This document shows positions 26,497 to 48,348 of a stretch of DNA of 59,230 bases, piece after piece. Where the stretch lies: the IMG/VR virus record IMGVR_UViG_3300005939_000010, positions 1 to 59,230 of that record; one strand, written 5' to 3'. This stretch comes from a virus (Duplodnaviria; Caudoviricetes). Below the pieces are notes generated by a model, which saw only the letters and a list, made by a program, of their open reading frames with translations, searched no databases and had not been told where the DNA came from. The position numbers and the translations under genes are program-made. Position 1 is the stretch's first letter, and every line of letters begins with the position of its first letter.

Positions 26497-26585
26497 GGAT
26501 AAGGAGGTGACGGCATGCTAGAGGTGCGACAAATAGTTGAGATTCTCATTTGTGTTCTGTTTCTGCATATGATAAGGGACAAGCG

Positions 26586-27815
26586 ATGAAGTGGGGTCGC
26601 CAACAAGAGGAAGCGATCAGCGCCGTAAGGCGGTGGCTAAGGAACACAAGCGATCAGCAAGTCTTCAGGTTGTTCGGCTATGCTGGCACTGGTAAGACTA
26701 CGCTCGCTGTGTACTTAGCAGAGAACGCTGGTCGGGTGCTCTTCGGAGCATACACTGGTAAAGCTGCATCAGTCATGCGGAAGCGCGGCTGCTCTATGGC
26801 CCAAACCATTCACCAGTTGATCTACCTCCCAGCATCTCGGTCAAAGGAGAAGCTCCGCGACCTACAGCGAGACCTCATGGAGGCTGCACATGAACTCCGC
26901 AGTGAGGGAGCAGAACAGGAACAGATCGACAAATCCACGGCTATCATACGAATCAAGCATGATATCGAGATCGAAGAGGCACGGCTCAAACGTCCCCGGT
27001 TCTCACTGAACTTAGACTCGACTGTGAAGGATGTCGACCTCGTCGTTATTGACGAATGCTCGATGGTTGATGAACGTATGGGTCAGGACCTTCTCTCCTT
27101 TGACACACCGGTCCTCGTCCTCGGCGATTCTGCTCAACTCCCCCCGGTGAGAGGTGGTGGCTTCTTTACCGACAAGAAGCCAGACATCATGCTGACAGAG
27201 ATCCACCGGCAGGCGCGTAACAACCCCATCATTGACCTGGCGACAAAGGTTCGTCTCGGCGAGACCCTCATCCCGGGAACCTATGGAGAGTCTGTCGTGA
27301 TGACCGGAAAGCCTGACCCTGCCATAGTAAAGGCTGCTGACCAGATCCTTGTTGGTCGCAACAAGACTCGTCGATATGTCAACTTCCGCATGCGGGCCCT
27401 CCTGGGCAAAGAGGGCGAACCTGCTCCCGTCCCCGGCGATCGACTGGTGTGCCTTCGTAATGATCACGAGGCTGGTCTTCTGAATGGTACTGTCTGGTCC
27501 TGTAGGGACGCGGCCTATGTAGACGGATACGATAGGATCGGGCTGACAGTTGAGGACGAGGACGGCGATGTGACGATCGATGTAGAGGCCCACATGCATT
27601 ACTTCGAAGGCCGGGAGGACGAGCTCCGCCACTGGGAGATAGCTGAGGCCCAGTGCTTTGATTATGGGTATGCCCTGACGACGCATAAGGCCCAGGGATC
27701 ACAATGGCCTCGCGTCTTTGTCTTCAACGAGAGCCACATATTCCGTGGGTCTGCAAGGAAGTGGCTCTATACTGCTATCACGAGAGCTTCAGAACAAATC
27801 ACGATTTGCCAATAG
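26586..27815 (+). CDS. RecD/Dda-like SF1B helicase
   Basis: GYAGTGKTT, IDECSM, GDSAQLPPV, YALTTHKAQGSQW, YTAITRA. Confidence 0.93.
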   Translation: MKWGRQQEEAISAVRRWLRNTSDQQVFRLFGYAGTGKTTLAVYLAENAGRVLFGAYTGKAASVMRKRGCSMAQTIHQLIYLPASRSKEKLRDLQRDLMEAAHELRSEGAEQEQIDKSTAIIRIKHDIEIEEARLKRPRFSLNLDSTVKDVDLVVIDECSMVDERMGQDLLSFDTPVLVLGDSAQLPPVRGGGFFTDKKPDIMLTEIHRQARNNPIIDLATKVRLGETLIPGTYGESVVMTGKPDPAIVKAADQILVGRNKTRRYVNFRMRALLGKEGEPAPVPGDRLVCLRNDHEAGLLNGTVWSCRDAAYVDGYDRIGLTVEDEDGDVTIDVEAHMHYFEGREDELRHWEIAEAQCFDYGYALTTHKAQGSQWPRVFVFNESHIFRGSARKWLYTAITRASEQITICQ

Positions 27816-27823
27816 GAGATTAG

Positions 27824-29617
27824 ATGTCGCAATACGGACCAACCCTGCCATTTTCTGAAGAGCTTCACGCCGAGAAGTATCGCGGCAAGGGTGAGACCTT
27901 CAAGGAGGCAACGAACCGGATAGCTGGAACACTGGAAGATAGCGAAGGGCACTTTAGGGCCTTTCGTGATGCTCTCCTTAATATGCGATTCATGCCTGGT
28001 GGTCGCATTCAAAACGCCATTGGCTCCACCAAGAACTGCACGGCCTACAACTGCTATGTGGCCGGCAAGATAGCCGACTCCTTTGTAGCAGGTGACGGCG
28101 CCATCATGCAGATAGCCTCTGAGGCCGCAGCTACTATGCGAATGGGTGGTGGGATTGGCTACGATTTCTCAACGCTGCGTCCGTGCGGCGACACTATCAA
28201 GAAGCTCCAGTCGCAGTCCTCAGGACCTATCTCCTTCATGGAAATCTTTGACGCGATCTGTAGATGCATTGCCTCCTCCGGCCATAGGCGAGGGGCACAG
28301 ATGGGAATCATGCGTATTGATCATCCCGACATCGAAGACTTCATCAGGTCAAAGCAACCGCCGAAGGCAGCTCAGCCGATCATGGAGCAACTGGCCAAAC
28401 ACCGGCATGGGACGCCGGAGTGGCTCGCTTGGTACCAGGCTCTTCAGGCGGTGTTCCAACTCACAGGGTTCAACATCTCAGTCGCCGTAACGGACGAGTT
28501 CATGAAGGCGCTTGAAGCCAATAGCGAATTCCCTCTAAGGTTCAATGACAAGGTGTATCGAACAACGAACGCGACGGCACTGTGGGACATGCTGATGCGG
28601 TCCACCTGGGATTGGGCCGAGCCGGGAGTCATCTTCATCGACACTATCAACCGGATGAACAACCTGTGGTATTGCGAGGAGATCATCGCGACGAATCCCT
28701 GCGGTGAGCAGCCACTGCCGGCGCACGGTGCCTGCCTCCTGGGCTCTTTCAACCTGACGCAGTACATCGTTCGGTCCCTGGGCCAGACTCGGCCATACTT
28801 TGACTTTGGTGAGTTGATAGAGGATATTCCACACGTGGTTCGGGCAATGGATAACGTGATCGATAAATCCACCTATCCCCTTCCCCAGCAGGAACAGGAA
28901 GCGAAGAGCAAGCGCCGGATGGGGCTGGGTGTTACTGGCCTGGCGAACGCTTTGGAAGTCTTGGGAATGCCTTACGGCTCTGATAGTTTCCAGCGAATGG
29001 AAATGCGAATCCTCATGACCATCGCAAATGAGGTCTACCGTGCATCGGCTCTCCTTGCCCAGGAGAAAGGAGCTTTCCCGTTATATGACCGGAAGTACTT
29101 ATCCTCCCCGTTCATCCAACTCCTCAACGATGACGTGAAGGCTTTGATCAGGCAACATGGGATCCGCAACAGCCACCTCACCTCCATAGCACCTACCGGC
29201 ACCATCTCCCTGTGTGCTGACAATGTGTCGTCCGGTATTGAGCCGGTCTTTTCGTATAGCCAACGGCGAACCGTCAACATGCCGTCCGGCCAGGTAGAGA
29301 CTGACTTCGATGACTACGGCAAGCGCGTGTTCGGTGTTAGGGGTAAGCGATGCCAGGACGTCACCATCGTGGAGCATCTTGATGTGCTGGAAATTGCGAC
29401 TCGCTGTGTAGACTCCGCCGTGAGTAAGACCTGCAACGTACCAGCCGACACACCATGGTCAGACTTCAAGGCCCTCTACGTTGAAGCATGGAATCGCGGC
29501 TGCAAGGGCATCACGACCTTTCAGGTAGGCGGTAAGAGAGCCGGGATTATCAAGTCCACGGATGACGCTGCGGCCTGCAAGATCGATCTACAGACGGGAC
29601 GTAAAGAGTGCGAGTGA
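27824..29617 (+). CDS. nrdJ: class II (adenosylcobalamin-dependent) ribonucleotide reductase
   Basis: PGGRI, GGGIG, TNPCGEQPL, IAPTGTIS; no NrdB small subunit in window. Confidence 0.9.
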   Translation: MSQYGPTLPFSEELHAEKYRGKGETFKEATNRIAGTLEDSEGHFRAFRDALLNMRFMPGGRIQNAIGSTKNCTAYNCYVAGKIADSFVAGDGAIMQIASEAAATMRMGGGIGYDFSTLRPCGDTIKKLQSQSSGPISFMEIFDAICRCIASSGHRRGAQMGIMRIDHPDIEDFIRSKQPPKAAQPIMEQLAKHRHGTPEWLAWYQALQAVFQLTGFNISVAVTDEFMKALEANSEFPLRFNDKVYRTTNATALWDMLMRSTWDWAEPGVIFIDTINRMNNLWYCEEIIATNPCGEQPLPAHGACLLGSFNLTQYIVRSLGQTRPYFDFGELIEDIPHVVRAMDNVIDKSTYPLPQQEQEAKSKRRMGLGVTGLANALEVLGMPYGSDSFQRMEMRILMTIANEVYRASALLAQEKGAFPLYDRKYLSSPFIQLLNDDVKALIRQHGIRNSHLTSIAPTGTISLCADNVSSGIEPVFSYSQRRTVNMPSGQVETDFDDYGKRVFGVRGKRCQDVTIVEHLDVLEIATRCVDSAVSKTCNVPADTPWSDFKALYVEAWNRGCKGITTFQVGGKRAGIIKSTDDAAACKIDLQTGRKECE

Positions 29618-29661: not shown

Positions 29662-30546
29662 ATGATTGAATACGACTTACAGGAAGAGCAGATTAAGGAG
29701 TACTTCGCCACAGCACAGGAGCGATACTCCATAATGTTGCGGAGGCGTGATGGGTCACCGAAGCCATGGTCGGATGATCAGGTCTTCAGGAACTGGCGGT
29801 TCTGTAATGTATTCCGCGAGGACGATAAGGTCACTGAGTGGATACGGAAGAACGTTCGGGAGCCTTTGCAGAACAACCCCAAGGTCATCACCGCGATGGC
29901 GGCATGCCGTATCTTCAATCGGATAGCAACCCTTGAGAGATTGGACAAGGCCCATCTCTTTATTGACTGGAACGCGGCTGAGTGCCGTAGGGTAATGGCC
30001 GGTGTCACGCCGGTTGTGGGTGCGGCATACGTCGTCAAAACGCCAGACGGTATGGATAAGCTCAACGGCTGTATTGAGATGGTTGATGCGTTTCAGCGGG
30101 ATGCCGCTAATGTGCTAACACATCTGGCAAGCCACCAACGTGGTCCTCTTTCCCTTGAACAGGTCTGGACAATTTTACAGCGTTTCCCTTGTATTGGCCC
30201 GTTCATGGCCTATGAGATAGTTTCAGACTTACGACACACCTACCTACTCAAGGACGCATGGGATGTATGTCGTTGGGCATGCCCTGGTCCCGGCGCTGCG
30301 AGAGGTCTGTCCTGGATTCATGCTAGGAATATGACGGCAGTTCCGTACGGCGGTAAGAAGGCGTCGGCCGCAGCCATCAAGGCCATGCGGATTTTGCTTC
30401 TTCACTCAACAGCGAAATCGCTGTGGCCGGCAGATTGGCCTCGGTGGGAGATGCGTGAGGTGGAGCATTGGCTCTGTGAGTACGCCAAGTATGCCAAGGT
30501 CAAGCACCTAAGAAAAACCATGAAAGTTAGATATCAAGGAGCGTAG
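29662..30546 (+). CDS. aGPT-Pplase1 / 5-hmdU DNA kinase helical domain protein (stand-alone)
   Basis: PWSDD.VF...RFCNVFREDDKVT, GPFMAYEIVSDL, GPGAARGL, REVEHWLCEYAKY. Confidence 0.85.
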   Translation: MIEYDLQEEQIKEYFATAQERYSIMLRRRDGSPKPWSDDQVFRNWRFCNVFREDDKVTEWIRKNVREPLQNNPKVITAMAACRIFNRIATLERLDKAHLFIDWNAAECRRVMAGVTPVVGAAYVVKTPDGMDKLNGCIEMVDAFQRDAANVLTHLASHQRGPLSLEQVWTILQRFPCIGPFMAYEIVSDLRHTYLLKDAWDVCRWACPGPGAARGLSWIHARNMTAVPYGGKKASAAAIKAMRILLLHSTAKSLWPADWPRWEMREVEHWLCEYAKYAKVKHLRKTMKVRYQGA

Positions 30547-30548
30547 GT

Positions 30549-31346
30549 ATGAAGATCTGGATACCAACCCGTTCACGACACCTAGTCTTCACGCAGGCAG
30601 GCCGCACGCTGGCACAGCTCATCAAGGTTCCCGAGCTCGTGGATAAGGTGGTCGTCGTCTGTCCCCTTGAGCAATTTGCCTCTTATGCCAACAGGATGCC
30701 CTCTGGTGTTCGCCTCTCAAGCTGCCCCGTCAGCGGCATCACCAACGTCCGCCAGTGGATCGGCCAGGTTGCAAAGGACGAGGGTGACGAGCACTTCTGT
30801 ATGATGGATGATGACCTCGGGTTCCTGATCCGCAAGGACCACCCGGATTGGCACCTGTTTGGTCAGGAACCTCAGCAGACCCTGGATATGGTCAACTACA
30901 TTGAGACGCTGCTGAAGCAGGGCTACGGCGCGGTCGGTGTTTCGGCTCGCGAAGGGCAGAACCGACTGGAAGATTGCCCGACTGACAACACGCGGCTGAT
31001 CCGCGTCCTCGCCTTCAACACGGAAGCCTTCCTGGGCTGTGAGCACGGTCGGGTAGAAGTGATGGAGGACTTTGACATCCTGCTCCAACTCCTTCGTAAG
31101 GGCCTGCCCAACTGTGTCACGGTGAGGTATGCCCAGGGGCAACGACAGACGCAGGAGGCCGGAGGTTGCAGCGACTACCGTTCGCATGCGGTTCATGAGG
31201 CTGCGGCTGAGAAGCTGGCTGAACTGCACGCGCCGTATGTCCGGACCCGGGAGAAGAAGAATAAGTCTGGTGGAGAATTTGGGACACGCAAGGAAGTCAC
31301 AATCGCATGGAAGAGAGCCTATGGCTCGAGTCTGAACGATGCCTAG
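30549..31346 (+). CDS. GT-A fold glycosyltransferase, TET/JBP-associated (TAGT/GREB1-like)
   Basis: IWIPTRSR, GITNVRQWI, MMDDDL (DxD), EDFDILLQLL, GGCSDYR. Confidence 0.75.
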   Translation: MKIWIPTRSRHLVFTQAGRTLAQLIKVPELVDKVVVVCPLEQFASYANRMPSGVRLSSCPVSGITNVRQWIGQVAKDEGDEHFCMMDDDLGFLIRKDHPDWHLFGQEPQQTLDMVNYIETLLKQGYGAVGVSAREGQNRLEDCPTDNTRLIRVLAFNTEAFLGCEHGRVEVMEDFDILLQLLRKGLPNCVTVRYAQGQRQTQEAGGCSDYRSHAVHEAAAEKLAELHAPYVRTREKKNKSGGEFGTRKEVTIAWKRAYGSSLNDA

Positions 31347-31665
31347 GATCCGCCCATCCCACCGTCTGGAGCAGATCACCGACAACCTGGTAACCCTTCG
31401 GCTATTGGCAGGACTGAAGGAAACGCCAGAAGGCTGCTTTGTCTGGCAACGGCACAAAGATCGTCACGGCTACGGCCAAATGTGGTACAATGGTAGAAGC
31501 CACTGGGTGCACCGCCTGTCCTACGCCATCTTCAAGGGCGATATTGAGGAGGGCCTGACAATAGACCACCTATGTCGAAACCGTGCCTGCTGCAACCCAG
31601 AGCATCTTGAGGCAGTTACGCAAAGCGAGAACTCATTAAGGAGATGGCAGTCATGCACGTCATAG
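31339..31665 (+). CDS. HNH homing endonuclease
   Basis: CFVWQ..GYG..VHRLSY..IDHLCRNRACCNPEHLEAVTQSEN. Confidence 0.92.
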   Translation: MPRIRPSHRLEQITDNLVTLRLLAGLKETPEGCFVWQRHKDRHGYGQMWYNGRSHWVHRLSYAIFKGDIEEGLTIDHLCRNRACCNPEHLEAVTQSENSLRRWQSCTS

Positions 31666-32672
31666 AAACGAGAAACGTCCACGAGGCCTTGCCGGAGGTC
31701 ATGCGTTATTTGCAGGAGCATGGTGAAGGCCGCGAGAGTAGGAACGGACCAGTGCTCAAAGCGCCGGGACCTGTGACTATTGTTTACGAACGGCCTACCG
31801 AGCGCGTCATGTTCTGGCCACAGAGGGATGCGAATCCCTTCTTCCACTTGCTTGAGGCCATGTGGATGTTGTGTGGTCGGAATGACGTTGCATTCCCGGC
31901 GTCCATAATAGGCACCATGCGAAACTTCTCCGACAATGGTGTCACCTACAATGGGGCTTACGGCCATCGGTGGCGGAGCCATTTTGGCTATGACCAACTC
32001 AGTACTATTGCGTCGGCTCTGAGAGAGAATCCCGACTGCCGACGGCAAGTCCTAACAATGTGGGACCCCTGGCTTGATCTCGGTCTCGAATCGAAAGACC
32101 TCCCGTGCAACACGCAGGCCTACTTCTCAATCAGTGGTGGTGTGTTGAATATGATGGTGACAAATCGATCCAACGATGCGGTCTGGGGAGCCCTCGGTGC
32201 CAACGCTGTGCACTTCTCTGTACTCCTTGAGTACATGGCCGCAAAAATTGGTGTGCCGGTCGGGACCTACTGGCAGGTAACAAACAACCTGCATCTCTAT
32301 CTCGACAATCACCGAGACTTGATGGAGGAGATGGCTAAGAAGGCATGGCCGTCCACCCAGTCCGAAAGCCCTTATCTGATGGAAGTTGTCAAGACCACCC
32401 CACTGATTCCCCGAGGTGACGTCCACCGTTTTGAGCAGGACCTGGGTGTCCTCCTGGACGACGGTCTTCTCCTGGGCATGACGGACCCCTTCATTCGCAA
32501 GGTGGCTGCTCCGATGCTAATGGCTCTCCGAGCCTATAAGGCCAACGAGGCCCCTGAGAAGTTCGATGCGGCGAGGGGAATTCTCCTCAAGGGTATGGAC
32601 CAAGACGGCGACTGGGCCGCGGCCTCGCTGGACTGGATAAACAGACGTGAGCGTAAGTGGAGGAGTAAGTGA
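31653..32672 (+). CDS. thymidylate synthase homologue, probable dUMP hydroxymethyltransferase
   Basis: SRNG, RDANPFFHL.E, GAYG.RWR, DLPCN, NRSND..WG..GAN; the Asn matches the dUMP-specifying position. Confidence 0.85.
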   Translation: MHVIETRNVHEALPEVMRYLQEHGEGRESRNGPVLKAPGPVTIVYERPTERVMFWPQRDANPFFHLLEAMWMLCGRNDVAFPASIIGTMRNFSDNGVTYNGAYGHRWRSHFGYDQLSTIASALRENPDCRRQVLTMWDPWLDLGLESKDLPCNTQAYFSISGGVLNMMVTNRSNDAVWGALGANAVHFSVLLEYMAAKIGVPVGTYWQVTNNLHLYLDNHRDLMEEMAKKAWPSTQSESPYLMEVVKTTPLIPRGDVHRFEQDLGVLLDDGLLLGMTDPFIRKVAAPMLMALRAYKANEAPEKFDAARGILLKGMDQDGDWAAASLDWINRRERKWRSK

Positions 32673-33208
32673 TGTCTCTAGAGCCCAGAGTGATCCAGCG
32701 GATCCGCCAGCGCCGGGAAGGCGGGCATACGACGCGGTGTCATACGGTTCCGCATATTGGGACCTACGACGTCGCCCAGCACTCCTGGCATGCGGCTGTA
32801 CTCCTATCGGAGCTACATCCCGGCGCCTCTAAGGAACTACTCCTCCATGTCCTGCTGCACGACGTACAGGAACGATGGACCGGCGATGCTCCGGCCTTTG
32901 CTAAGTGGGCCTTCAAGGATGTGGGCGCAGCCTTATGGAAGGCTGAGGAGAAGGTCTCCAAGGCGATCGGTGTCTGCAACACACTTACTCCCTACGAGGC
33001 CGAGTGGGCCAAAGCCGTCGATGTCCTGGAGCTCTGGATGTGGTGTCTAGACCAGGAGGCCATCGGGAACTGTGGTAATGTGGGCAACCTGAAAGTGAAT
33101 ATCAGCCGGTGGGCTTCAGAGCACCGCGAGAAGCTGCCGATGCCAGCATGGCACTTCTTCAAACAGTATGGATGGCAACGTGAAAGCGATATTCTGGAGG
33201 TATCATGA
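32672..33208 (+). CDS. HD-domain 5'-deoxynucleotidase (YfbR-like)
   Basis: VAQHSW, LLHDVQERWTGD, KAVD.LE. Confidence 0.85.
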   Translation: MSLEPRVIQRIRQRREGGHTTRCHTVPHIGTYDVAQHSWHAAVLLSELHPGASKELLLHVLLHDVQERWTGDAPAFAKWAFKDVGAALWKAEEKVSKAIGVCNTLTPYEAEWAKAVDVLELWMWCLDQEAIGNCGNVGNLKVNISRWASEHREKLPMPAWHFFKQYGWQRESDILEVS

Positions 33209-33741
33209 AGCATGATCTAGACACAGCACACCTGGAGCATATCACGCCGGTATGCGACGAGGACAAGGCCGGTCTCAACAAGGCCGAGGCCCAGTACAAG
33301 GGCAGTTGGAAACGGCGCGGTGGCATTGGGGCCTATATGATGCTCTGTCGTAAGTGGGACCGCATCGAGAATGCAATTGAGAGTGATAGCGGCGTCACCA
33401 TGTACGGTAAGAAGGTCTCTCTTCGCCATGCTCTTGCCATGCTGACAGCAAAGCTGGAGCAGTGTGGGTCCAGCGATCTTGGCTCTCAGAATATCGGCCA
33501 AATCTTGGACGTGCTCCAGGGTGTTCAGGGCGACCACCGTTTTGACATCTTCGCCAAAATCGCATCCGACGATCGACCTGAAGGGCTGATTGACGACATC
33601 CGCGACCTCCGCCGGTATCTGGTTCTCGTTGAGGCCGAGATGAGGGCACGCGGCAGCAAGGGTGCTGTATCGACGCATCGCGACAACGTTGTTCAGACAA
33701 CGGTTCTTCCGGAAGCACCTAGTGATGGAGGCGCAAAATGA
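33205..33741 (+). CDS. nucleotide-modification-associated all-alpha (MazG-like) protein
   Basis: YKGSWKRRGG.GAYMML.RKWDRIE and DDIRDLRRYLVLVEAE. Confidence 0.7.
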   Translation: MKHDLDTAHLEHITPVCDEDKAGLNKAEAQYKGSWKRRGGIGAYMMLCRKWDRIENAIESDSGVTMYGKKVSLRHALAMLTAKLEQCGSSDLGSQNIGQILDVLQGVQGDHRFDIFAKIASDDRPEGLIDDIRDLRRYLVLVEAEMRARGSKGAVSTHRDNVVQTTVLPEAPSDGGAK

Positions 33742-34019
33742 GTAGAGACAAGACAGACGCTGAGAACTTCATGGAGTTGCAGAAGGCCGTGGTCGCTGCA
33801 ACACGGAAGGCGATTGAGGAGAACGCGGTCGACCTACCAGTCGCAATGCTGGCACAGTACATGCACTCAATCGGCGGTTTCTTCCATGAAGAGGGCTATG
33901 GCACGTCGGGTCCGAAGCACGAGTATCCCTTCAGGCTTCGCGTACAATCAACAATCCGACCGAATATCGAGTCGGCCTCGAAAGTTCGGGTGGTTGAGCA
34001 AGTGTTGGGGTGGGGATAA
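33738..34019 (+). CDS. hypothetical protein
   Basis: GGAGG RBS; coupled to both neighbours. Confidence 0.55.
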   Translation: MSRDKTDAENFMELQKAVVAATRKAIEENAVDLPVAMLAQYMHSIGGFFHEEGYGTSGPKHEYPFRLRVQSTIRPNIESASKVRVVEQVLGWG

Positions 34020-34534
34020 TGGAACCCGTTAGAGACATGATCTCAAGGCCAAGGCGTAGGGATCAGATTCGTGAGTATGTGGTCGGGCTGATGTTTGATG
34101 AGGCGATGCAGAAGGTCGTACTCATCAAGAAAGAGCACGGTCCGAAGTGCGTTGTCGGTTTCTGGAACGGGGTCGGTGGTCACGTTGAGCCAGGTGAGGT
34201 CCCGATTGACGCTATGGTCCGGGAATACCGTGAAGAGGCTGGGGTGTTGACTACTCCTTCCGATTGGATGCTGTTCACCGAACTGGACGGAGGGCCGGAG
34301 TTGGAGTCACCTGAGTTCAGGGTGTCCTTCTACTGGGGACGGCGCCAGAGTGCTGTCTCCCGTGCTCGAACCATGACGGACGAACGCGTCGGGACTTTCT
34401 GGGTCGCCGACATCGCTGAAAATCTGCGTGATGAAATCGTCCCGAACCTTTCATGGATGATCCCCTTCCTTAAAGACCCTGGCACCACCAACTACATTCC
34501 GGCGCTTTGCTGCACCTATGAGGATAGCAAATGA
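34019..34534 (+). CDS. Nudix hydrolase
   Basis: Nudix box GGHVEPGEVPIDAMVREYREEAG. Confidence 0.9.
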   Translation: MEPVRDMISRPRRRDQIREYVVGLMFDEAMQKVVLIKKEHGPKCVVGFWNGVGGHVEPGEVPIDAMVREYREEAGVLTTPSDWMLFTELDGGPELESPEFRVSFYWGRRQSAVSRARTMTDERVGTFWVADIAENLRDEIVPNLSWMIPFLKDPGTTNYIPALCCTYEDSK

Positions 34535-36510
34535 TACAGCAACCTCTCTTCCAACCTGATGTCGACTGGAAGCCTCCGAAGATCAGCGACCTTCCCTCCT
34601 GGGCAGATGCCCGGAGGGTTTCGGTCGACTGTGAAACGAGGGACGACCACATCAAGAAGCTCGGCCCAGGAGTGCGACGGGGAGGCTACATTTGCGGCTA
34701 CTCCTTTGCGATCGAGGACGGACCCAGCCACTATGTTCCCTTGCGTCATGAGGGTGGCGGCAACGTCCCAAACCCTCAGGCCGCGCTTCAGTATCTCCGT
34801 GACCAGTCTAAGGTCTTCAAGGGCTCGATCTGCGGTGCCGGCTTGCAGTATGACCTTGACTACTTCGCGGAGCAGGACATAATCTTCCGGGAGGCCGAGT
34901 GGTTCCGTGATGTGCAGATAGCCGAGCCACTTCTTGATGAGCTACAGATGTCCTACTCCTTGGAGAATATTGCCAAAAGGCGCGGCATCCCTGGGAAGGA
35001 CGAGGGTGGCCTCTTTGATGTCGGCAGCCTGATGGGTATTAAGAGGAAGGATATCAAAGGCACTATCTGGAGAATGCCAGCACAGCACGTTGCGGCCTAC
35101 GGCATCCAAGATGCGGAGCTGCCTCTACAGCTGCTCCGGCGCCAGGAACGTGAGATCGACGAGGAAAACCTATGGGATATCTACAACCTTGAGTCTAAGC
35201 TGCTGCCCGTTCTGGTGAAGGTCCGGCGACGCGGTGTGCGTGTCAATTTTGACCAACTGGATAAGGTGGCGAAGTGGTCCCTTGTCGAAGAAGGCAAGGC
35301 CCTCGAAGAGGTATACACGCGGACCCTGGTTCGGGTAGCCGTCGGAGATGTCTGGAAGGTCAATGCCCTCGTGCCTGTCCTGCAGAGCATAGGTGTTACG
35401 GTCCCAATGACGGTTCCCAAAGGCAAGTCCAAGCCAAAAGAATCCGTCAGCAACGACTGGCTGAAATCACTGAATCATCCTGTGGCCATAGCCCTCTACA
35501 GGGCACGCAAGATCAACAAGCTCCGGACAACCTTCGCAAACTCCGTACGAGAGCACGCGGTAGGTGACCGGATACATTGCACGCTCAACCAACTACGTAG
35601 GACCGACGACGAGACTGGAGACGACAAGGGAGCTCGTTATGGCCGACTCTCCTGCACCTTACCCAACCTTCAGCAACAGCCGTCCAGGGACGACCCTAAG
35701 CATGACCTATACATCGCCAAGCGTTGGCGGTCGATCTACGTCCCGGACGAGGGCGGCCTCTGGGCCTGCGATGACTATTCCCAGCAGGAACCTCGGTGGT
35801 TGGTCCACTACGCTGAGCACTGCCACTTGAACCCGAAGCTCCCGAAGTTCAACTTCCCTTCGGCCAGTGTAGCTGCGGCCAAATACCGCGACGATCCAAA
35901 TACCGACAACCACACGATGATGGCCCGTATCGTCTACGACCTCGGCGACAACGAGCAGCCGACCAAGGACCAGAGGACCGCAGCAAAGATCATCTACCTG
36001 GGCCTCTGCTATGGTATGGGTGGCGGCAAGCTCGCGAGGTCTCTGGGCCTACCCACCATCTGGAAGGATAAGTGGAACGGTATAGGTAAGTATGAGGCCG
36101 CAGGCCAGGAAGCCCAGGCGGTGCTGGACCTATTCAACACCAGAGCTCCGTTCATCAGAGGCATGGCGAAGGAATGCGAGAGGCGTGCCAAGCGCCGTGG
36201 CTTTATCAAAACCGTTCTGGGTCGGCATTGCCGGTTCCCGAAGAAAACGAACGGTGGCTGGGACTGGTGCCACAAAGGGCTGAACCGTTTGATCCAAGGT
36301 TCCTCCGGCGACCAGACTAAGAAAGCCATGGTCGACGCCGACGCGGCTGGCTACCGCGTGCAGTTGCAGGTGCATGATGAGCTCGACCTGACAGTTGAAA
36401 ATCGTGGCGTGGCAGAGGGATTGGCAATAATAATGCGTGAGTGTGTAACGGCCAACGTCCCATTCAAGGTGGACGTGGAAATTGGGCCCTCTTGGGGCGA
36501 AATCAAGTAG
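34531..36510 (+). CDS. polA: family A DNA polymerase with 3'-5' exonuclease
   Basis: DCET, YDL, DYSQQEPR (motif A), KIIYLGLCYG (motif B), QVHDE (motif C). Confidence 0.95.
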   Translation: MIQQPLFQPDVDWKPPKISDLPSWADARRVSVDCETRDDHIKKLGPGVRRGGYICGYSFAIEDGPSHYVPLRHEGGGNVPNPQAALQYLRDQSKVFKGSICGAGLQYDLDYFAEQDIIFREAEWFRDVQIAEPLLDELQMSYSLENIAKRRGIPGKDEGGLFDVGSLMGIKRKDIKGTIWRMPAQHVAAYGIQDAELPLQLLRRQEREIDEENLWDIYNLESKLLPVLVKVRRRGVRVNFDQLDKVAKWSLVEEGKALEEVYTRTLVRVAVGDVWKVNALVPVLQSIGVTVPMTVPKGKSKPKESVSNDWLKSLNHPVAIALYRARKINKLRTTFANSVREHAVGDRIHCTLNQLRRTDDETGDDKGARYGRLSCTLPNLQQQPSRDDPKHDLYIAKRWRSIYVPDEGGLWACDDYSQQEPRWLVHYAEHCHLNPKLPKFNFPSASVAAAKYRDDPNTDNHTMMARIVYDLGDNEQPTKDQRTAAKIIYLGLCYGMGGGKLARSLGLPTIWKDKWNGIGKYEAAGQEAQAVLDLFNTRAPFIRGMAKECERRAKRRGFIKTVLGRHCRFPKKTNGGWDWCHKGLNRLIQGSSGDQTKKAMVDADAAGYRVQLQVHDELDLTVENRGVAEGLAIIMRECVTANVPFKVDVEIGPSWGEIK

Positions 36511-36518
36511 GAGACACC

Positions 36519-37859: not shown

Positions 37860-37961
37860 GATGGATAGACTACTTGTCGGCATCTGTGGTTGCGTGATGT
37901 GGTGGGCTTGGTTTAAGATCCACCTGTGGTATCTGAAATTCTTTTATCCAGGGAGAAAGAA

Positions 37962-38834: not shown

Positions 38835-39214
38835 AAGGCGTAGTCAACTACAATTACTACACAGCTCTGCTGTTTGATCGTCGGCCCGATCTACATATGA
38901 CGGTCCAGTACTACTGCAACTTGACGCCGAGGAAGCTCGGCCAACTCATCGTGAACGTAAACGATCTGATCACAGACTCTGATCTACGACAATTTAAGAT
39001 CAAGCTCGACATTGAGGACTTCTTTGGACCGAAGCATACCGTAAGGGTGCTCCGCCCACATGAGCTGCTGGCACCACCGTGGCTTCTGGCAATTAGTAAA
39101 GAAAACTGGTCTCCGCACATTAGCTGTAAGGACAACGCCTTGATGGTGAAGGCCGACACCTTGGTTATCATGACAAAGAGAAGGGAGATTGTACGGTGGA
39201 ACCTGCTGAAGTAA
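38831..39214 (+). CDS. putative 2H phosphoesterase
   Basis: Two HxT/S motifs, LHMTV and PHISC; 127 aa. Confidence 0.55.
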   Translation: MKGVVNYNYYTALLFDRRPDLHMTVQYYCNLTPRKLGQLIVNVNDLITDSDLRQFKIKLDIEDFFGPKHTVRVLRPHELLAPPWLLAISKENWSPHISCKDNALMVKADTLVIMTKRREIVRWNLLK

Positions 39215-39690
39215 GAGAGCAAGACCTCGGACTATTACGACGCGCCCTTGGTGTGTCCACTGTGTCCCCTGACCCAACTACCAAGGTCGGTGCGGTTCTG
39301 GCTAACACGGAAGGGATTGTCATAGCTACCGGCTTCAATAGGTTCCCGCGCGGGATCACTCCTGATGCACGGCTGAACGATCGGCCCTTGAAGAATGAGA
39401 TGGTAATCCACGCGGAACCAAATGTGATTCTCCAAGGGCTTGAATTGATCAGCAAGGTTGGTATGTATTTTTGCACGCTGTATATAACAACGTTGCCGTG
39501 TGCCCGTTGCACCGGGATCATCTTGGATGCCAACATTGGCAGCGTTGTGTGCCTGGAACCTACTGCGGAATTCCTTACTCGTTGGAAGGATTCCGTTGAA
39601 CTGTCCCGTAGTCTCTTCGAGGAGGCCGGGGTGCAACTGAAAGAGTATTCACTTGAGGAGCTAGACAGAGATGGCAAAGAGCAGATTTGA
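39196..39690 (+). CDS. dCMP deaminase
   Basis: SPDPTTKVGAV, GFN.FP, HAEPN, PCARC. Confidence 0.92.
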   Translation: MEPAEVREQDLGLLRRALGVSTVSPDPTTKVGAVLANTEGIVIATGFNRFPRGITPDARLNDRPLKNEMVIHAEPNVILQGLELISKVGMYFCTLYITTLPCARCTGIILDANIGSVVCLEPTAEFLTRWKDSVELSRSLFEEAGVQLKEYSLEELDRDGKEQI

Positions 39691-46211: not shown

Positions 46212-47632
46212 GCAACATCCTAATACAGAACAAGGGTGAGCTACCTCTATGGGGCATGCGCCTTCTGGGCCTCTCGAACAAGAACGCGGACCAGATCGGG
46301 CAGTTTGGTACAGGCCTCAAGGAAAGCATCGCTCTCCTGGCGCGGCTGGAGCAGTTGCCGGTCATATTCTCCGGAGACCTGCGAATCGACTTCAAGGTGC
46401 TTGAACGGGACGACCAGCAGGAGATCTGCTTCCACCTGTCTCAGCCCAGAGGAGACTGGGAGGCGTGGAAATGGCACGGGATGGGGATGCATCCTGACTT
46501 CGGTAAGGCCGACTGGAACGATGCGTGGATGATATTCCGCGAGATCATCTGTAATGCCTTGGATGAGTCGGGCGTGGATGATCTCCATCACGACGTGACA
46601 TCGTCGACTCTGGAAGGTGTACCAGGGGCGACCCGAGTATACATCCCTGTCACACCGAAGATCCTGGAGGCCTACACGAAGATCCATGATCGGCTCCTAC
46701 TCCTGTCTGACGTGGCCACCGTGCGGCCGGTGTACCGGGCCCGCATCCTCGCGAAGAAGGCCAACCACCCAGGGCTGCAAGTCTTTCACCGTGGCGTCTG
46801 GATTCAGGAAAGCACTGTGCCGTCCCTCTATGACTACGAGATCGGCGACCTCAAGCTGAATGAGTCTAGGTCGGCCGATTGGTATGACGTCAATAGCAAG
46901 ATAGCCCGTGTGGTGTCCGCCTTTGGCGTAGAAGAGGCCAAGGTGTTGATTGCCCGCATGCTGATTGATAAAGATGCACCCTCCGATGGTGACTGCTGCC
47001 TACCAGATGAGGAGTCCGACAGACCCCACTTCTCGGATCGTGCAAAGTGCTACGAGGAGAAGTGTCTTGCAGCCTGCAGCCACTATACCACCGTGTCAGA
47101 AGGTGAGGCGTGGCGGGAGGCCTTCTCGGCCTTGTTCGGGAACAACGCGGTCATGTGTACGAACGACAAATTCTACTATGACCGGCTGAATGATCTTGGT
47201 AGAAAGCCAGTTATCGTAGAGCATGACGGCCTCCGGTCGTTGCTGAAGGCAGCCGGAGTACCGTTTATGAGTCAGATCCTCACGGAGGAGCAGCAGGCCT
47301 ACGAAGAGCTCCGCGAACCGGACGATGGGGAGAGGGCAGTGTTCGGCCAGGTGTGGGACTTATTCTCTGGCGCCGGAATGACGCAGGGTAAGGCCAAGCC
47401 GGGGCATATGATGTTCCGTCAGCGGCCTGGCAAAGCCGAGGCCGTCTTCGGTGAGTATCGCAAGGGCATTTGCTACATCAACATCGACTATGTCGGCTCC
47501 GCACAGGAGCGAAGGGCCTGCATCGAAGAAATCGCCCACCACCTGTCTGGAGCGATGGACCACAGCAAGGAGTTTCAGCACTACCTCCTTGAGCTGGCCG
47601 ACGCCTTCATGCTAAGAAAGGAAGTCGTATGA
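46208..47632 (+). CDS. GHKL-ATPase-like N-terminus with C-terminal peptidase-like motif
   Basis: IGQFGTGLK, REIICNALDE; C-terminal IEEIAHH...DH..EF. Confidence 0.55.
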   Translation: MSNILIQNKGELPLWGMRLLGLSNKNADQIGQFGTGLKESIALLARLEQLPVIFSGDLRIDFKVLERDDQQEICFHLSQPRGDWEAWKWHGMGMHPDFGKADWNDAWMIFREIICNALDESGVDDLHHDVTSSTLEGVPGATRVYIPVTPKILEAYTKIHDRLLLLSDVATVRPVYRARILAKKANHPGLQVFHRGVWIQESTVPSLYDYEIGDLKLNESRSADWYDVNSKIARVVSAFGVEEAKVLIARMLIDKDAPSDGDCCLPDEESDRPHFSDRAKCYEEKCLAACSHYTTVSEGEAWREAFSALFGNNAVMCTNDKFYYDRLNDLGRKPVIVEHDGLRSLLKAAGVPFMSQILTEEQQAYEELREPDDGERAVFGQVWDLFSGAGMTQGKAKPGHMMFRQRPGKAEAVFGEYRKGICYINIDYVGSAQERRACIEEIAHHLSGAMDHSKEFQHYLLELADAFMLRKEVV

Positions 47633-48348
47633 GCATTCGAATCTGTGGCCTATGTAAACGCTACGGAAGCTGTGAGCATCCGGAGAAAGGTTTGGACGTT
47701 GTCGTTCCAAGTTGCCACCTCTTCCGAGACGCTGACACCGGCGACCGCGTGTGCCTCAACTGCGTCAAGTTCAAAGGTAATGGCGCTGGCGGCACCTGTA
47801 GCGGAACGAGGGAGTATGTACAGTATTGTCGATCCTATGAACCTACCCACGGACACCGAGGTATTCCTCAGGGGCGAGTTGATTGCGGTGTCCCGAATAT
47901 GGTGAAGGGTCCGGCAGAATGGCCGAGGCACATCGGCCGTGACCGCCTTGATCTGCTGTTTGCTGAGCAGGCCAAGTTGAACAAGAGAGCCGGTTTTGAC
48001 GTGGAGGAAGTATTCTCAGAACCAGGGAAGATCGACCTCTTATTCGCTGGCCACTGGACCAACGCCTTTGCGACTGCGATGCAGAGTGAACTCTGCGAGC
48101 TCCGCGACTGCACCTACTGGAAGCATTGGTATGCTGAGGCGCGTGAGGGGCGCCAGTACGAAATCTCCGATCTTGAGCACGCCAAGGTTGAGGTTATTGA
48201 CCTCCTGTTCTTCTGGATAAGTCTATGCCAGACCCTGGGCATGGGGCCGGAGGATGTGTACCGTATCTACCATGCCAAGTTGGCGAAGAACCACGCTCGC
48301 CAGGACGATGACTGCACGAGTGAGCAAGCGAAAGGCTACGACATATGA
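47629..48348 (+). CDS. dimeric (all-alpha) dUTPase with Cys-rich N-terminus
   Basis: ELCELRD..YWKHW, EVIDLLFF, YHAKLAKNHARQ. Confidence 0.8.
   Translation: MSIRICGLCKRYGSCEHPEKGLDVVVPSCHLFRDADTGDRVCLNCVKFKGNGAGGTCSGTREYVQYCRSYEPTHGHRGIPQGRVDCGVPNMVKGPAEWPRHIGRDRLDLLFAEQAKLNKRAGFDVEEVFSEPGKIDLLFAGHWTNAFATAMQSELCELRDCTYWKHWYAEAREGRQYEISDLEHAKVEVIDLLFFWISLCQTLGMGPEDVYRIYHAKLAKNHARQDDDCTSEQAKGYDI

What the first reader, a model, noticed from the sequence alone, without database searches (positions are those of the whole stretch)
29662..34534. Candidate pathway for glycosylated hydroxymethyluracil (base J-like) phage DNA
Seen: a tightly packed block encoding an aGPT-Pplase1/5-hmdU-kinase helical domain with no fused P-loop, a GT-A glycosyltransferase (DDD, ED..L, GGC), a thymidylate synthase homologue with the dUMP-type Asn, an HD nucleotidase, a MazG-like protein and a Nudix enzyme, directly upstream of polA. 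Established: M6/ViI/phiW-14-type phages incorporate hmdU and hypermodify it through a 5-hmdU DNA kinase and amino acid or amine transferases, with PLP or radical SAM enzymes in some cases. The kinetoplastid base J glucosyltransferase belongs to the TET/JBP-associated GT family. No aGPT-Pplase2 transferase, PLP, rSAM or TET/JBP gene was recognised here. Inference: hmU is made at nucleotide level and then glycosylated in DNA, with the helical protein as the base-recognition or flipping partner. That would be a TET-independent route to a base J-like nucleotide.
Basis: partly seen in the sequence, partly recalled or inferred. Interest (0 to 1): 0.9.

Follow-up and report, generated by a model that had tools for sequence, protein, structure and literature searches.

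The report
Kinase-free sugar-on-hydroxymethyluracil phage DNA module
This uncultured M6/PhiJL001-like phage most likely replaces thymine with hydroxymethyluracil and then attaches a sugar to it in DNA, a widespread gene set whose DNA product has not been measured, and the scan has met it in other phages before.

Summary
The genes are real. Pfam gives HMUDK_hel (clade-1 aGPT-Pplase) at 29662-30546, a TAGT GT-A glycosyltransferase at 30549-31346, a thymidylate-synthase homologue with Cys155 and Asn187 at 31644-32672, then HD, Nudix and PolA. Only the 'MazG-like' label could not be verified.

The window is a 93%-complete viral record syntenic with phages M6, PaMx11 and PhiJL001. It has no 5-hmdU DNA kinase, amino-acid:DNA transferase, TET/JBP, radical SAM or PALP-type PLP gene in six frames.

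In 48 related viral records the helical protein travels with the TS homologue (47/48). Glycosyltransferase (16) and kinase/transferase (29) cassettes are near-exclusive alternatives, with an overlap of 1. They swapped at least 5 times on the helical-protein tree. Relatives of the glycosyltransferase at about 40% identity sit beside ParB-linked TET/JBP genes.

Glycosylated 5-hmU DNA is therefore the best reading, at about 0.55.

The helical protein keeps the Glu/Cys pair that is catalytic in PaMx11 gp46, occurs with every cassette type, and is not consistently adjacent to the glycosyltransferase.

Against the reading: PhiJL001 DNA is reported to cut normally with restriction enzymes.

This scan has already reported the same module in at least 8 other genomes. 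Pyle et al. surveyed GT-A plus ThyS contigs. Novelty is moderate.

The parts
27824..29617 (+). Ribonucleotide reductase; upstream anchor of the conserved nucleotide/replication module
   Evidence: PF02867 E 1.7e-102; 62% identical to M6 gp46 and 59% to PhiJL001 gp14
29662..30546 (+). Clade-1 aGPT-Pplase (Pfam HMUDK_hel): stand-alone HhH-glycosylase-like protein with a conserved E268-H269-x-x-C272-E273 motif; likely an enzyme, reaction unknown
   Evidence: PF18723 E 1.5e-39; 31/40/40% identical to M6 gp55 / PaMx11 gp50 / PhiJL001 gp19; AF2 pLDDT 96; VIA Z 10.2 to PaMx11 gp46 8z2n_B, rmsd 3.9, 212 aligned; motif aligned to gp46 E243/C247; motif in 47/47 and 47/48 relatives
30549..31346 (+). TAGT-family GT-A glycosyltransferase; predicted to put a sugar on 5-hmU in DNA
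   Evidence: PF20691 E 4.5e-16; phrog_842 3e-36; 41% identical to PhiJL001 gp22; DDD, EDFD and GGCS invariant; GT-A fold
31339..31665 (+). HNH homing-type endonuclease inserted between glycosyltransferase and TS homologue; not part of the chemistry
   Evidence: PF13392 E 2.3e-15; phrog_826 1e-30; same position in L017-L019
31644..32672 (+). Thymidylate-synthase-family enzyme, predicted dUMP hydroxymethylase (Cys155, Asn187; about 110-aa C-terminal extension beyond the Pfam match)
   Evidence: PF00303 E 4.6e-19, profile 57-226 of 266 only; phrog_5131 4.3e-123; 49/52/44% identical to M6 gp58 / PaMx11 gp51 / PhiJL001 gp24; residues; the only TS-family gene in the record, and no ThyX
32669..33208 (+). 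HD-domain phosphohydrolase, conserved next to the TS homologue in M6 and PaMx11; inferred nucleotide-pool enzyme
   Evidence: HD_3 E 1.7e-5; phrog_6047 3.5e-43; 49% identical to M6 gp59
33205..33741 (+).
   Evidence: No Pfam, PHROG or PDB-profile hit; homologues in loci of both cassette types
33738..34019 (+). 93-aa protein of unknown function
   Evidence: No Pfam or PHROG hit; seen only in L004/L017-L019
34010..34534 (+). Nudix hydrolase; inferred nucleotide-pool sanitiser
   Evidence: PF00293 E 2.7e-10
34531..36510 (+). Family A DNA polymerase (PhiJL001/M6 type) that must accept the modified dNTP and template
   Evidence: 51/53/46% identical to M6 gp62 / PaMx11 gp55 / PhiJL001 gp28
39196..39690 (+). 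dCMP deaminase, supplier of dUMP
   Evidence: PF00383 E 5.7e-16; homologous to M6 gp65, PaMx11 gp56 and PhiJL001 gp30
47629..48348 (+). Dimeric-dUTPase-family protein; possible dUTP/dTTP exclusion enzyme (inferred)
   Evidence: PF08761 dUTPase_2 E 4.6e-8

Best explanation
The block is the nucleotide and DNA-modification core of a Mesyanzhinovviridae-like siphovirus.

Proposed pathway: dCMP deaminase supplies dUMP. The TS-family enzyme (Cys155, Asn187) hydroxymethylates dUMP to 5-hmdUMP. HD, Nudix and dUTPase-family enzymes shape the nucleotide pool. The phage PolA puts 5-hmdU into DNA. The TAGT GT-A enzyme then transfers a sugar from a host NDP-sugar directly to the 5-hydroxymethyl group of hmU in the DNA polymer. 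The product is an O-glycosyl-5-hmdU, base J-like, of unknown sugar, anomer and extent.

The glycosyltransferase is one of several interchangeable tailoring cassettes. In relatives the alternatives are kinase + amino-acid:DNA transferase + tailoring enzymes, or methyltransferases. All plug in next to a constant pair: the TS homologue plus clade-1 aGPT-Pplase.

The clade-1 protein is not an adaptor for the glycosyltransferase. It is most likely a Cys-dependent enzyme acting on 5-substituted uracil in DNA, independent of phosphorylation, and its reaction is unknown.

Shown: domain identities, folds, conserved residues, synteny and co-occurrence. Inferred: every chemical step.
For: Identity and synteny:
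- Pfam and PHROG assignments.
- Gene-for-gene synteny with M6, PaMx11 and PhiJL001. The window lacks their gp51-54 / gp46-49 cassette and has a glycosyltransferase instead.
- M6 and PaMx11 modifications are made from 5-hmdU in DNA (Lee 2021 abstract and passages).
- A DUHMT gene is reported in all analysed Mesyanzhinovviridae (Lydia paper passage).

TS homologue:
- It has Cys155 and the uracil-type Asn187. Its Pfam match stops at profile position 226 of 266.
- There is no second TS or ThyX in the record.

Absences: no kinase, ADDT, TET, radical SAM, PALP or Nmad5 in six frames.

Survey: I examined 48 of the 80 loci returned for the helical protein, taking those on contigs of at least 24 kb.
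- TS homologue in 47/48.
- TAGT-type glycosyltransferase in 16/48.
- Kinase-like gene in 29/48 and ADDT in 22/48.
- Glycosyltransferase with kinase in 1/48, and glycosyltransferase with ADDT in 0/48. Fisher p = 5e-8 on rows that are not independent.
- The glycosyltransferase label needs 8 changes on the helical-protein tree, at least 5 of them forced by well-supported branches.

Glycosyltransferase acceptor:
- Three relatives at 40-41% identity lie 1-2 kb from Tet_JBP (E 1e-26 to 3e-29). In L012, the one whose neighbouring genes I scanned, there are also ParB_N and a sugar-nucleotide enzyme. No C5-methyltransferase or TS was found in these fragments. This fits the ParB-linked T-dioxygenase class of the 2026 PNAS paper (passages).
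- The TAGT family includes the T6-type enzyme that acts on glucosyl-hmC DNA (Durham-phage paper passage; BFVD match to the PKO111 enzyme at TM 0.77).

Helical protein: E-H-x-x-C-E is conserved and aligns with gp46 E243/C247 (Wen 2024 passages).
Against: - There are no chemical data for this phage or any relative.
[quoted passage not shown] The original paper is not held. This argues against dense T4-like glycosylation, though not against partial or site-limited modification.
- Sequence cannot separate a dUMP hydroxymethylase from a dTMP synthase. The call rests on orthology and on the truncated Pfam match.
- The glycosyltransferase acceptor is inferred from context only. TAGT members can also glycosylate a sugar rather than a base.
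- The record is 93% complete, so a missing gene cannot be excluded.
- The hhalign match that places the Glu/Cys motif is weak overall (probability 1.3%, E 0.039). Fold scores of Z about 10 are in the range common for helical proteins.
- One glycosyltransferase-bearing relative in the survey (G034/L075) and one outside it (L016) do carry a kinase-like gene.
Confidence: 0.55

Rival explanations
1. One reading: the helical protein is a non-catalytic base-recognition or base-flipping subunit that the glycosyltransferase needs in order to reach hmU in duplex DNA.
For: The two genes are 2 nt apart in the window and 0-12 nt apart in its three closest relatives. The protein has an HhH-glycosylase-like fold, and its relative gp46 is described as using a flipped-out base (Wen 2024 passages).
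Against: The protein is equally conserved in 29 kinase-type records and 4 other records without a TAGT gene. On its tree the cassette types interleave. In the other glycosyltransferase lineages the gene lies 0.4-4.9 kb away, upstream or downstream. It retains the Glu/Cys motif that is catalytic in gp46. By recall, JGT works alone; phage 5mYOX-linked glycosyltransferases are reported to transfer sugars to 5hmC in DNA (Pyle preprint introduction).
Confidence: 0.1
2. A hidden kinase route: the membrane-anchored P-loop kinase at 37926-38834 phosphorylates hmU in DNA. The clade-1 protein then displaces the phosphate as in M6, and the glycosyltransferase decorates that product or a different fraction.
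For: AAA_33 P-loop domain, E 9.8e-13. PaMx11's own 5-HMUDK also scores better on AAA_33 (2.9e-6) than on the HMUDK model (0.002). Two relatives (L016, L075) do combine a kinase-like gene with TAGT genes.
Against: There is no similarity to M6 gp54 (BLASTP E 3.8). Neither M6 gp54 nor PaMx11 gp49 hits any window ORF. PF18748 is absent at E<=1. The best phage matches of the kinase domain are T4-type PseT polynucleotide kinases, 172 records at 28-36% identity. It sits next to a protein with two HxT/S motifs that looks like a 2H phosphoesterase (by eye). It occurs only in L004/L017 and L019, not in the other glycosyltransferase-bearing loci whose flanks cover that distance.
Confidence: 0.07
3. The ordinary reading: the TS homologue makes dTMP, the DNA is canonical, and the glycosyltransferase acts on a non-DNA acceptor such as a host envelope or a phage protein.
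For: phiJL001 DNA is reported to digest normally. Hydroxymethylase and methylase activity cannot be told apart from sequence. In Pyle et al.'s survey about 65% of contigs with a glycosyltransferase hit had no neighbouring base-modification gene.
Against: The TS homologue is the syntenic counterpart of those of M6 and PaMx11, whose DNA modifications derive from 5-hmdU. The helical DNA-modification protein accompanies it in 47/48 records. The glycosyltransferase sits inside the replication operon and alternates with DNA-kinase/transferase cassettes and, in relatives, with TET/JBP. It belongs to the TAGT family of DNA-linked glycosyltransferases.
Confidence: 0.13

Closest known systems
Thymidine hypermodification clusters of Pseudomonas phages M6/YuA and PaMx11 (Lee et al. 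2018, 2021; Wen et al. 2024)
   Same: Same virus family and gene order: helicase, RNR, [variable cassette], clade-1 aGPT-Pplase, TS homologue, HD, PolA, dCMP deaminase. The TS homologue is 49-52% identical and the clade-1 protein 31-40%.
   Different: The window has no 5-HMUDK, no amino-acid:DNA transferase (PF18724), and no PLP, radical SAM, FAD or acetyltransferase tailoring genes. A TAGT glycosyltransferase stands downstream of the clade-1 gene instead.
Alphaproteobacteria phage PhiJL001 (AY576273; Keylargovirus), gp19-gp24
   Same: The nearest sequenced isolate found that carries the same combination: gp19 HMUDK_hel (40% identity), gp22 'glucosyl transferase' (41%) and gp24 TS homologue (44%), with no kinase or ADDT in the whole record (G022).
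   Different: PhiJL001 has two small ORFs and an Nmad5 protein (gp23) in the cluster. The window has an HNH endonuclease and no Nmad5. Its DNA is reported to cut normally with restriction enzymes.
Base J synthesis in kinetoplastids (JBP1/2 thymidine hydroxylase + JGT glucosyltransferase)
   Same: The predicted product class is a sugar O-linked to 5-hydroxymethyluracil in DNA. Pyle et al. report that phage GT-A DNA glycosyltransferases structurally match a T. cruzi JGT homologue (passage).
   Different: Here hmU would come from a nucleotide-level TS-family hydroxymethylase, not from oxidation of T in DNA. There is no Tet_JBP gene. The JGT relation was not tested here because no JGT structure or AFDB library was at hand.
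Phage 5mYOX/TET-linked GT-A glycosyltransferases (Burke 2021; Pyle 2024) and ParB-linked T-dioxygenases (PNAS 2026)
   Same: Same Pfam family (TAGT). Three relatives of the window's glycosyltransferase at 40-41% identity sit in TET cassettes, and the one scanned (L012) also has ParB_N.
   Different: The window uses the pre-replicative TS route. Pyle et al. counted GT-A + ThyS contigs but, in the passages I read, treated them under cytosine sugar hypermodification. In those passages they did not name the clade-1 Pplase or the absence of a kinase (supplements not seen).
T6/T2-type beta-glucosyl-HMC alpha-glucosyltransferase
   Same: Same Pfam and PHROG family (PF20691, phrog_842). The BFVD model of the Klebsiella phage PKO111 enzyme matches at TM 0.77, E 4.9e-17.
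   Different: That enzyme adds a second glucose to glucosyl-hmC made by a dCMP hydroxymethylase route. Here the TS homologue has the uracil-type Asn, and no first glycosyltransferase is present.

Membership tests
Pfam PF18723 HMUDK_hel / clade-1 aGPT-Pplase | Profile match over the curated cut-off across the whole domain | tested here: met
   136.5 bits against 25, profile 4-277 of 281
Pfam PF18723 HMUDK_hel / clade-1 aGPT-Pplase | HhH DNA-glycosylase-like all-helical fold shared with clade-2 (AADT) | tested here: met
   AF2 pLDDT 96. VIA Z 10.2 to 8z2n_B (rmsd 3.9, 212 aligned) and Z about 10 to archaeal Ogg. Foldseek gave no hit at E<=1e-3, and Z about 10 is within the range common for helical proteins.
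Pfam PF18723 HMUDK_hel / clade-1 aGPT-Pplase | Association (fusion or neighbourhood) with a 5-hmdU DNA kinase, as the Pfam name implies | tested here: not met
   No PF18748 in six frames at E<=1. No blastp hit of M6 gp54 or PaMx11 gp49. 19 of 48 relatives also lack a kinase-like gene.
Amino-acid:DNA transferase (PF18724 ADDT, clade-2; PaMx11 gp46 / M6 gp51) | Profile match to PF18724 | tested here: not met
   The window protein hits only PF18723. There is no PF18724 anywhere in the record.
Amino-acid:DNA transferase (PF18724 ADDT, clade-2; PaMx11 gp46 / M6 gp51) | Catalytic Glu...Cys pair (gp46 E243, C247) | tested here: met
   E268 and C272 align with them in hhalign, a weak overall match. 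Both are invariant in 47 homologues. The motif [EQ]H..CE is in 47/47 and 47/48 relatives.
Pfam PF20691 TAGT (TET-associated glycosyltransferase) | Profile match over the cut-off, GT-A fold and DxD motif | tested here: met
   59.8 bits against 27.5, profile 1-205 of 205. D87-D89 invariant. GT-A matches in PDB and BFVD.
Pfam PF20691 TAGT (TET-associated glycosyltransferase) | Genomic association with a TET/JBP dioxygenase | tested here: not met
   No PF12851 in the record. The feature is met in relatives L012-L014.
Pfam PF20691 TAGT (TET-associated glycosyltransferase) | Sugar transfer to a 5-hydroxymethylpyrimidine, or its sugar, in DNA | not testable with these tools
   Needs an enzyme assay or nucleoside LC-MS.
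Thymidylate synthase family, dUMP hydroxymethylase subgroup | TS fold with the catalytic Cys and the uracil-specifying Asn (E. coli C146 and N177 by recall) | tested here: met
   PF00303 at 69 bits. C155 and N187 align to the TS Cys and Asn, and MilA has Asp at the Asn column.
Thymidylate synthase family, dUMP hydroxymethylase subgroup | Product is 5-hmdUMP, not dTMP | not testable with these tools
   Indirect evidence only: 49-52% identity and synteny with M6 gp58 / PaMx11 gp51, and a Pfam match ending at 226 of 266 followed by an unrelated ~110-aa tail.
M6/ViI/PhiW-14-type thymidine hypermodification pathway | 5-HMUDK plus clade-2 transferase acting on 5-PmdU | tested here: not met
   Both are absent.
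Kinetoplastid base J pathway | JBP-type thymidine hydroxylase | tested here: not met
   No Tet_JBP.
Kinetoplastid base J pathway | JGT-type glucosyltransferase | tested here: inconclusive
   TAGT membership was shown. The link to JGT rests on Pyle et al.'s AFDB comparison, and no JGT model was available here.

The most novel reading that the evidence does not exclude
The clade-1 aGPT-Pplase (Pfam 'kinase helical domain') is an active, Cys272/Glu268-dependent DNA enzyme. It works on 5-hydroxymethyluracil without prior phosphorylation and is the constant core of hmU-based hypermodification systems.

One candidate reaction is conversion of the hmU residues that the tailoring cassette leaves untouched into thymine. 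That post-replicative hmU-to-T step was described for SP10 and PhiW-14, and I found no enzyme assigned to it in the passages I read. Another candidate is creation of the exocyclic methylene for direct group transfer.

Together with the glycosyltransferase this would give a mixed T / glycosyl-hmU genome. That would also explain why PhiJL001 DNA still cuts with restriction enzymes.
Probability: 0.25. Interest if true: 0.8.

Novelty: new variant of a known kind. Interest (0 to 1): 0.55.

Why it matters
If virions carry glycosyl-hmU, this would be the first base J-like nucleotide I know of that is made outside eukaryotes by a nucleotide-pool route rather than by TET/JBP. It would also add a sugar branch to the thymidine hypermodification map, which so far holds amino-acid- and polyamine-derived groups.

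The comparative picture gives a simple rule for mining new DNA chemistries. The TS homologue and the clade-1 protein are constant, and a swappable cassette sits beside them: glycosyltransferase, kinase + transferase, or methyltransferase.

The picture also isolates the clade-1 protein as a conserved enzyme with no assigned reaction. M6 gp55 was dispensable for GlyT formation in lysates (Lee 2021 passage).

PhiJL001 is a cultured isolate carrying the same set. The prediction can therefore be tested by nucleoside mass spectrometry if a stock survives.

Tried and rejected
Complex prediction. Complex prediction of glycosyltransferase (A2) with helical protein (A1) gave no support: score 0.00 in two runs, controls not run.

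Sequence search of the helical protein against PDB gave 0 hits at E<=10. Foldseek against PDB gave nothing at E<=1e-3.

The 'MazG-like' label for 33205-33741 was not verified.
- Pfam at 0.01 and 0.05 gave nothing meaningful, only a chance-level SMP match at 0.023.
- PHROGs gave none.
- A 12-row profile against PDB gave only chance matches at E>=0.16.
- The Atlas lead to DUF1599 scores below 0.9.

The P-loop kinase as the missing 5-HMUDK is rejected.

DNA-level search of the whole block against phage genomes matched only about 530 bp of the TS gene, in 74 records at 64-66% identity.

The first Fisher test (p = 6.6e-7) used Pfam calls only: 14 glycosyltransferase records, 26 kinase or ADDT records, overlap 0. 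tblastn and protein-level Pfam then added 2 glycosyltransferase records and 7 kinase-like records, including the one overlap (G034). The revised table 1/15/28/4 gives p = 5e-8. Rows are related (42 different of 49 in the tree), so neither p is a true probability.

Rows dropped:
- 32 of the 80 helical-protein loci, all on contigs under 24 kb, were not surveyed.
- L072 and L075 were left out of alignment A3 (L072 had a stop codon in its HSP range; L075 I dropped with it).
- L096 lacks the strict motif in its HSP.

Literature. I found no paper reporting a glycosylated hmU nucleoside from a TS-route phage. The library lacks most subscription journals.
- Iyer et al. 2013, Lohr et al. 2005 and Witmer 1981 are not held. 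Witmer 1981 is known to me only as a title in a reference list.
- Supplements are closed. Lee 2021 Figs S7/S15 and Pyle 2024 Table S4/Fig. S13 may list PhiJL001-type clusters, and I could not see them.

Full report
WHAT IS THERE

The window is a whole IMG/VR virus record of 59,230 bp, estimated 93% complete. From 26.5 to 42.8 kb it carries one co-directional replication and nucleotide operon:
- Dda-like helicase, 26550-27815
- ribonucleotide reductase, 27824-29617
- HMUDK_hel protein, 29662-30546
- TAGT glycosyltransferase, 30549-31346
- HNH endonuclease, 31339-31665
- thymidylate-synthase homologue, 31644-32672
- HD hydrolase, 32669-33208
- two small unknown proteins
- Nudix hydrolase, 34010-34534
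- PolA, 34531-36510
- a 472-aa protein
- a membrane-anchored P-loop kinase, 37926-38834
- a small protein with two HxT/S motifs
- dCMP deaminase, 39196-39690
- primase-helicase

Genes in the finding's range are 2 nt apart or overlap by 4-22 nt. The exception is the 'MazG-like' protein at 33205-33741, for which no library gave a match.

WHOSE GENOME IT RESEMBLES

BLAST of annotated proteins from Pseudomonas phages M6 and PaMx11 and from Alphaproteobacteria phage PhiJL001 against the window's ORFs shows gene-for-gene synteny. Identities are:
- RNR: 59-62% (M6 and PhiJL001; the PaMx11 RNR genes were not in the query set)
- PolA: 46-53%
- TS homologue: 44-52%
- HD: 36-49%
- HMUDK_hel: 31-40%

M6 carries gp51-gp54 between RNR and the HMUDK_hel gene: amino-acid:DNA transferase, PLP enzyme, radical SAM enzyme and 5-hmdU DNA kinase. 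PaMx11 carries gp46-gp49 there. The window has nothing in that position. Instead it has a glycosyltransferase immediately after the HMUDK_hel gene.

PhiJL001 has the window's arrangement: gp19 HMUDK_hel, gp22 'glucosyl transferase' and gp24 TS homologue. Its whole record contains no kinase and no transferase (G022).

THE TS HOMOLOGUE

Its Pfam match covers profile positions 57-226 of 266 and is followed by an unrelated tail of about 110 aa. In alignments to solved structures, Cys155 sits at the catalytic Cys. Asn187 sits at the Asn of the TS 'PFNIAS' segment. The CMP hydroxymethylase MilA, which is the best PDB hit at E 3.2e-18, has Asp there.

It is the only TS-family gene in the record, and there is no ThyX.

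Sequence cannot show whether it hydroxymethylates or methylates. The inference of hydroxymethylation rests on two things. It is the syntenic counterpart of the M6 and PaMx11 genes. Those phages' modifications are built on 5-hmdU in DNA (Lee 2021 abstract and passages; Lydia paper passage).

THE GLYCOSYLTRANSFERASE

The full-length TAGT profile matches. An AF2 model from a 48-row alignment has pLDDT 94.7. Foldseek finds 294 PDB chains at E<=1e-3, all GT-A enzymes or nucleotidyltransferases with the related fold, and the top hit is AvpGT at 8.4e-7. In BFVD it matches phage TAGT proteins, including:
- phiRSL1 B2ZYD7, TM 0.76, E 1e-19
- a T6-type beta-glucosyl-HMC alpha-glucosyltransferase from Klebsiella phage PKO111, TM 0.77, E 4.9e-17

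D87-D88-D89, E173-D174-F175-D176 and G205-G206-C207-S208 are invariant. So are eight Arg (R68, R134, R149, R152, R168, R211, R247) or Lys (K236) residues among the 29 invariant columns, which would suit a polyanionic acceptor.

THE HELICAL PROTEIN IS PROBABLY AN ENZYME, NOT AN ADAPTOR

It belongs to a large family of stand-alone proteins of about 290 aa: 949 near-length homologues at E<=1e-5 (longer fused forms were not searched). The AF2 model has pLDDT 96. It has the HhH-glycosylase-like fold. VIA-align gives:
- Z 10.4 to the queuine-salvage enzyme DUF2419
- Z 10.2 to PaMx11 gp46/PUGT (8z2n_B, rmsd 3.9, 212 residues aligned)
- Z about 10 to archaeal Ogg

These Z values are not decisive for a helical protein, and Foldseek gave nothing at E<=1e-3.

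More telling is the motif. In 47 aligned homologues, E268, H269, C272 and E273 are invariant. hhalign lays 'MREVEHWLCEY' on gp46's 'IQEVETILCKW', although the overall match is weak (probability 1.3%, E 0.039). That places E268 and C272 on E243 and C247.

Wen et al. 2024 describe Glu243 as a metal ligand. They describe Cys247 as the thiol proposed to attack C6 of the pyrimidine, and both were among their alanine mutants (passages). Lee 2021 report that mutating the conserved Cys or the neighbouring Glu abolishes activity in M6 gp51 and ViI gp247 (passage).

The motif [EQ]H..CE is present in 47/47 alignment rows, in 47/48 surveyed loci, and in M6 gp55, PaMx11 gp50 and PhiJL001 gp19.

Lee 2021 found M6 gp55 unnecessary for glycinyl-thymidine formation in lysates, and I saw no function assigned to it.

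SURVEY

Seeding with the glycosyltransferase returned 13 IMG/VR loci.
- Ten have the helical protein and the TS homologue within 10 kb.
- The other three (L012-L014) have neither. They carry a Tet_JBP gene 1-2 kb away, at E 1e-26 to 3e-29. In L012, the one whose neighbouring genes I scanned, there are also a ParB_N protein and a cytidylyltransferase/mannose-6-P-isomerase-type protein. No C5-methyltransferase or TS was found in those fragments, which are 11-52% complete.

That layout fits the ParB-linked phage T-dioxygenases described in 2026 (passages). The same glycosyltransferase clade is therefore coupled either to a post-replicative or to a pre-replicative source of a 5-hydroxymethylpyrimidine, probably hmU in both cases.

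Seeding with the helical protein gave at least 524 relatives. Eighty loci were kept. I surveyed the 48 that lie on contigs of at least 24 kb, using whole-record six-frame Pfam searches, tblastn and protein-level Pfam. The counts are:
- TS homologue: 47/48, and 16/16 of records at least 90% complete
- TAGT-type glycosyltransferase: 16/48
- kinase-like gene: 29/48
- ADDT: 22/48
- glycosyltransferase with kinase-like: 1/48 (G034/L075, which has two TAGT genes, a kinase-like gene and a MobA-like nucleotidyltransferase)
- glycosyltransferase with ADDT: 0/48

Four records have none of the three. In the three of them whose neighbourhoods I scanned (G030, G039, G048), FkbM-type or class-I SAM methyltransferases, or a weak GT-B match, sit next to the helical gene.

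One glycosyltransferase-seeded locus outside the 48 (L016) also combines a kinase-like gene with the glycosyltransferase, a radical SAM-SPASM enzyme and a methyltransferase.

On a maximum-likelihood tree of the helical protein, the glycosyltransferase label needs 8 changes, at least 5 of them forced by well-supported branches. The window sits in a supported clade of 4 glycosyltransferase-type and 3 kinase-type rows.

The constant unit is therefore the TS homologue plus the helical protein, and the tailoring cassette beside it has been exchanged repeatedly. Tight adjacency of glycosyltransferase and helical gene (within 12 nt) holds only for the window and L017-L019. Elsewhere the glycosyltransferase lies 0.1-4.9 kb away, on either side.

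THE OTHER KINASE

The P-loop domain at 37926-38834 (AAA_33, E 9.8e-13) has no similarity to M6 gp54. Its best phage matches are T4-type PseT polynucleotide kinases, 172 records at 28-36% identity. It occurs only in the window's closest relatives. I read it as an end-healing kinase, not the missing hmU kinase.

EVIDENCE AGAINST THE MAIN READING

There is no chemistry for any member. [quoted passage not shown] The second statement predates recognition of these families. The first argues against dense glycosylation. The primary paper is not held, so I do not know which enzymes were used.

Partial modification is the rule in this group; Lee 2021's abstract says 'up to half of thymidines'. That would reconcile the two observations but is not shown. 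TAGT enzymes can also glycosylate a sugar rather than a base. The record is 7% short of complete by CheckV's estimate.

WHAT IS NEW AND WHAT IS NOT

- Pyle et al. (preprint passages) counted thousands of GT-A contigs next to ThyS or 5mYOX and noted that many 5mYOX are probably hmU-forming. In the text I could read they did not single out the kinase-free clade-1 + TAGT + uracil-type TS set.
I could not check this because Iyer 2013 is not held.
- This scan has already reported the same module in at least 8 other genomes, with the same conclusion.

VERDICT

The pathway idea is plausible (0.55) and testable. The partner idea is not supported. The module is a new variant of a known kind and is recurrent in this scan. 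Interest is 0.55.

Noticed in passing
window 36441-39214: A 472-aa protein with a weak HTH match, a kinase with a hydrophobic N-terminus and a PNK-like P-loop domain (AAA_33), and a 127-aa protein with two HxT/S motifs (2H phosphoesterase by eye) lie between PolA and dCMP deaminase. The kinase hit occurs only in L004/L017 and L019, and the small-protein hit also in L018. It looks like an RNA or DNA end-healing set.
   Followed up: partly
window 31339-31665: An HNH endonuclease is wedged between glycosyltransferase and TS homologue, overlapping both by 8 and 22 nt. It is at the same place in L017-L019. PhiJL001 and M6 have an Nmad5 protein at that position instead.
   Followed up: partly
L016:8240-12778 and L075:11037-14670: These relatives have a richer cassette. 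L016 has a kinase-like gene, a 308-aa unknown protein, TAGT, radical SAM-SPASM and a SAM methyltransferase. L075 has two TAGT genes, a kinase-like gene and a MobA-like nucleotidyltransferase. They are candidates for tailored or phospho-linked glycans on hmU.
   Followed up: partly
L012:7714-10777 (also L013, L014): A ParB_N protein, a Tet_JBP dioxygenase, a cytidylyltransferase/mannose-6-P-isomerase-type protein and a glycosyltransferase 40% identical to the window's form one cassette. There is no C5-methyltransferase in the fragment. It is a candidate post-replicative T to hmU to glycosyl-hmU route.
   Followed up: partly
L069:10816-12782, L082:10822-13102, L096:9138-9980: These records have the helical protein and TS homologue but no TAGT, kinase or ADDT. 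They carry FkbM-type or class-I SAM methyltransferases, and L082 has a weak GT-B match, next to the helical gene. These are possible further tailoring variants such as O-methylation.
   Followed up: no
L011:8753-9478; L005:5996-6391; L010:9456-9944; L069:8638-9489: The variable slot also holds an Acb2/Tad1-hairpin protein (E 7.5e-17) in L011. T4 endoV-like pyrimidine-dimer glycosylase domains occur in the three other relatives.
   Followed up: no
window 33205-33741: A small conserved helical protein has the invariant segments Y-x-x-S-W-x-x-R-G-G and D-D-x-x-D-L-R-x-Y-L. It follows the TS/HD genes in both glycosyltransferase-type and kinase-type relatives and matches no Pfam, PHROG or PDB family.
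   Followed up: partly
window 44015-45593: An N6/N4 DNA methyltransferase (PF01555, E 7.7e-32) is followed by a sigma-70-family protein (regions 2 and 4). This is a second, independent DNA-modification gene in the same genome.
   Followed up: no
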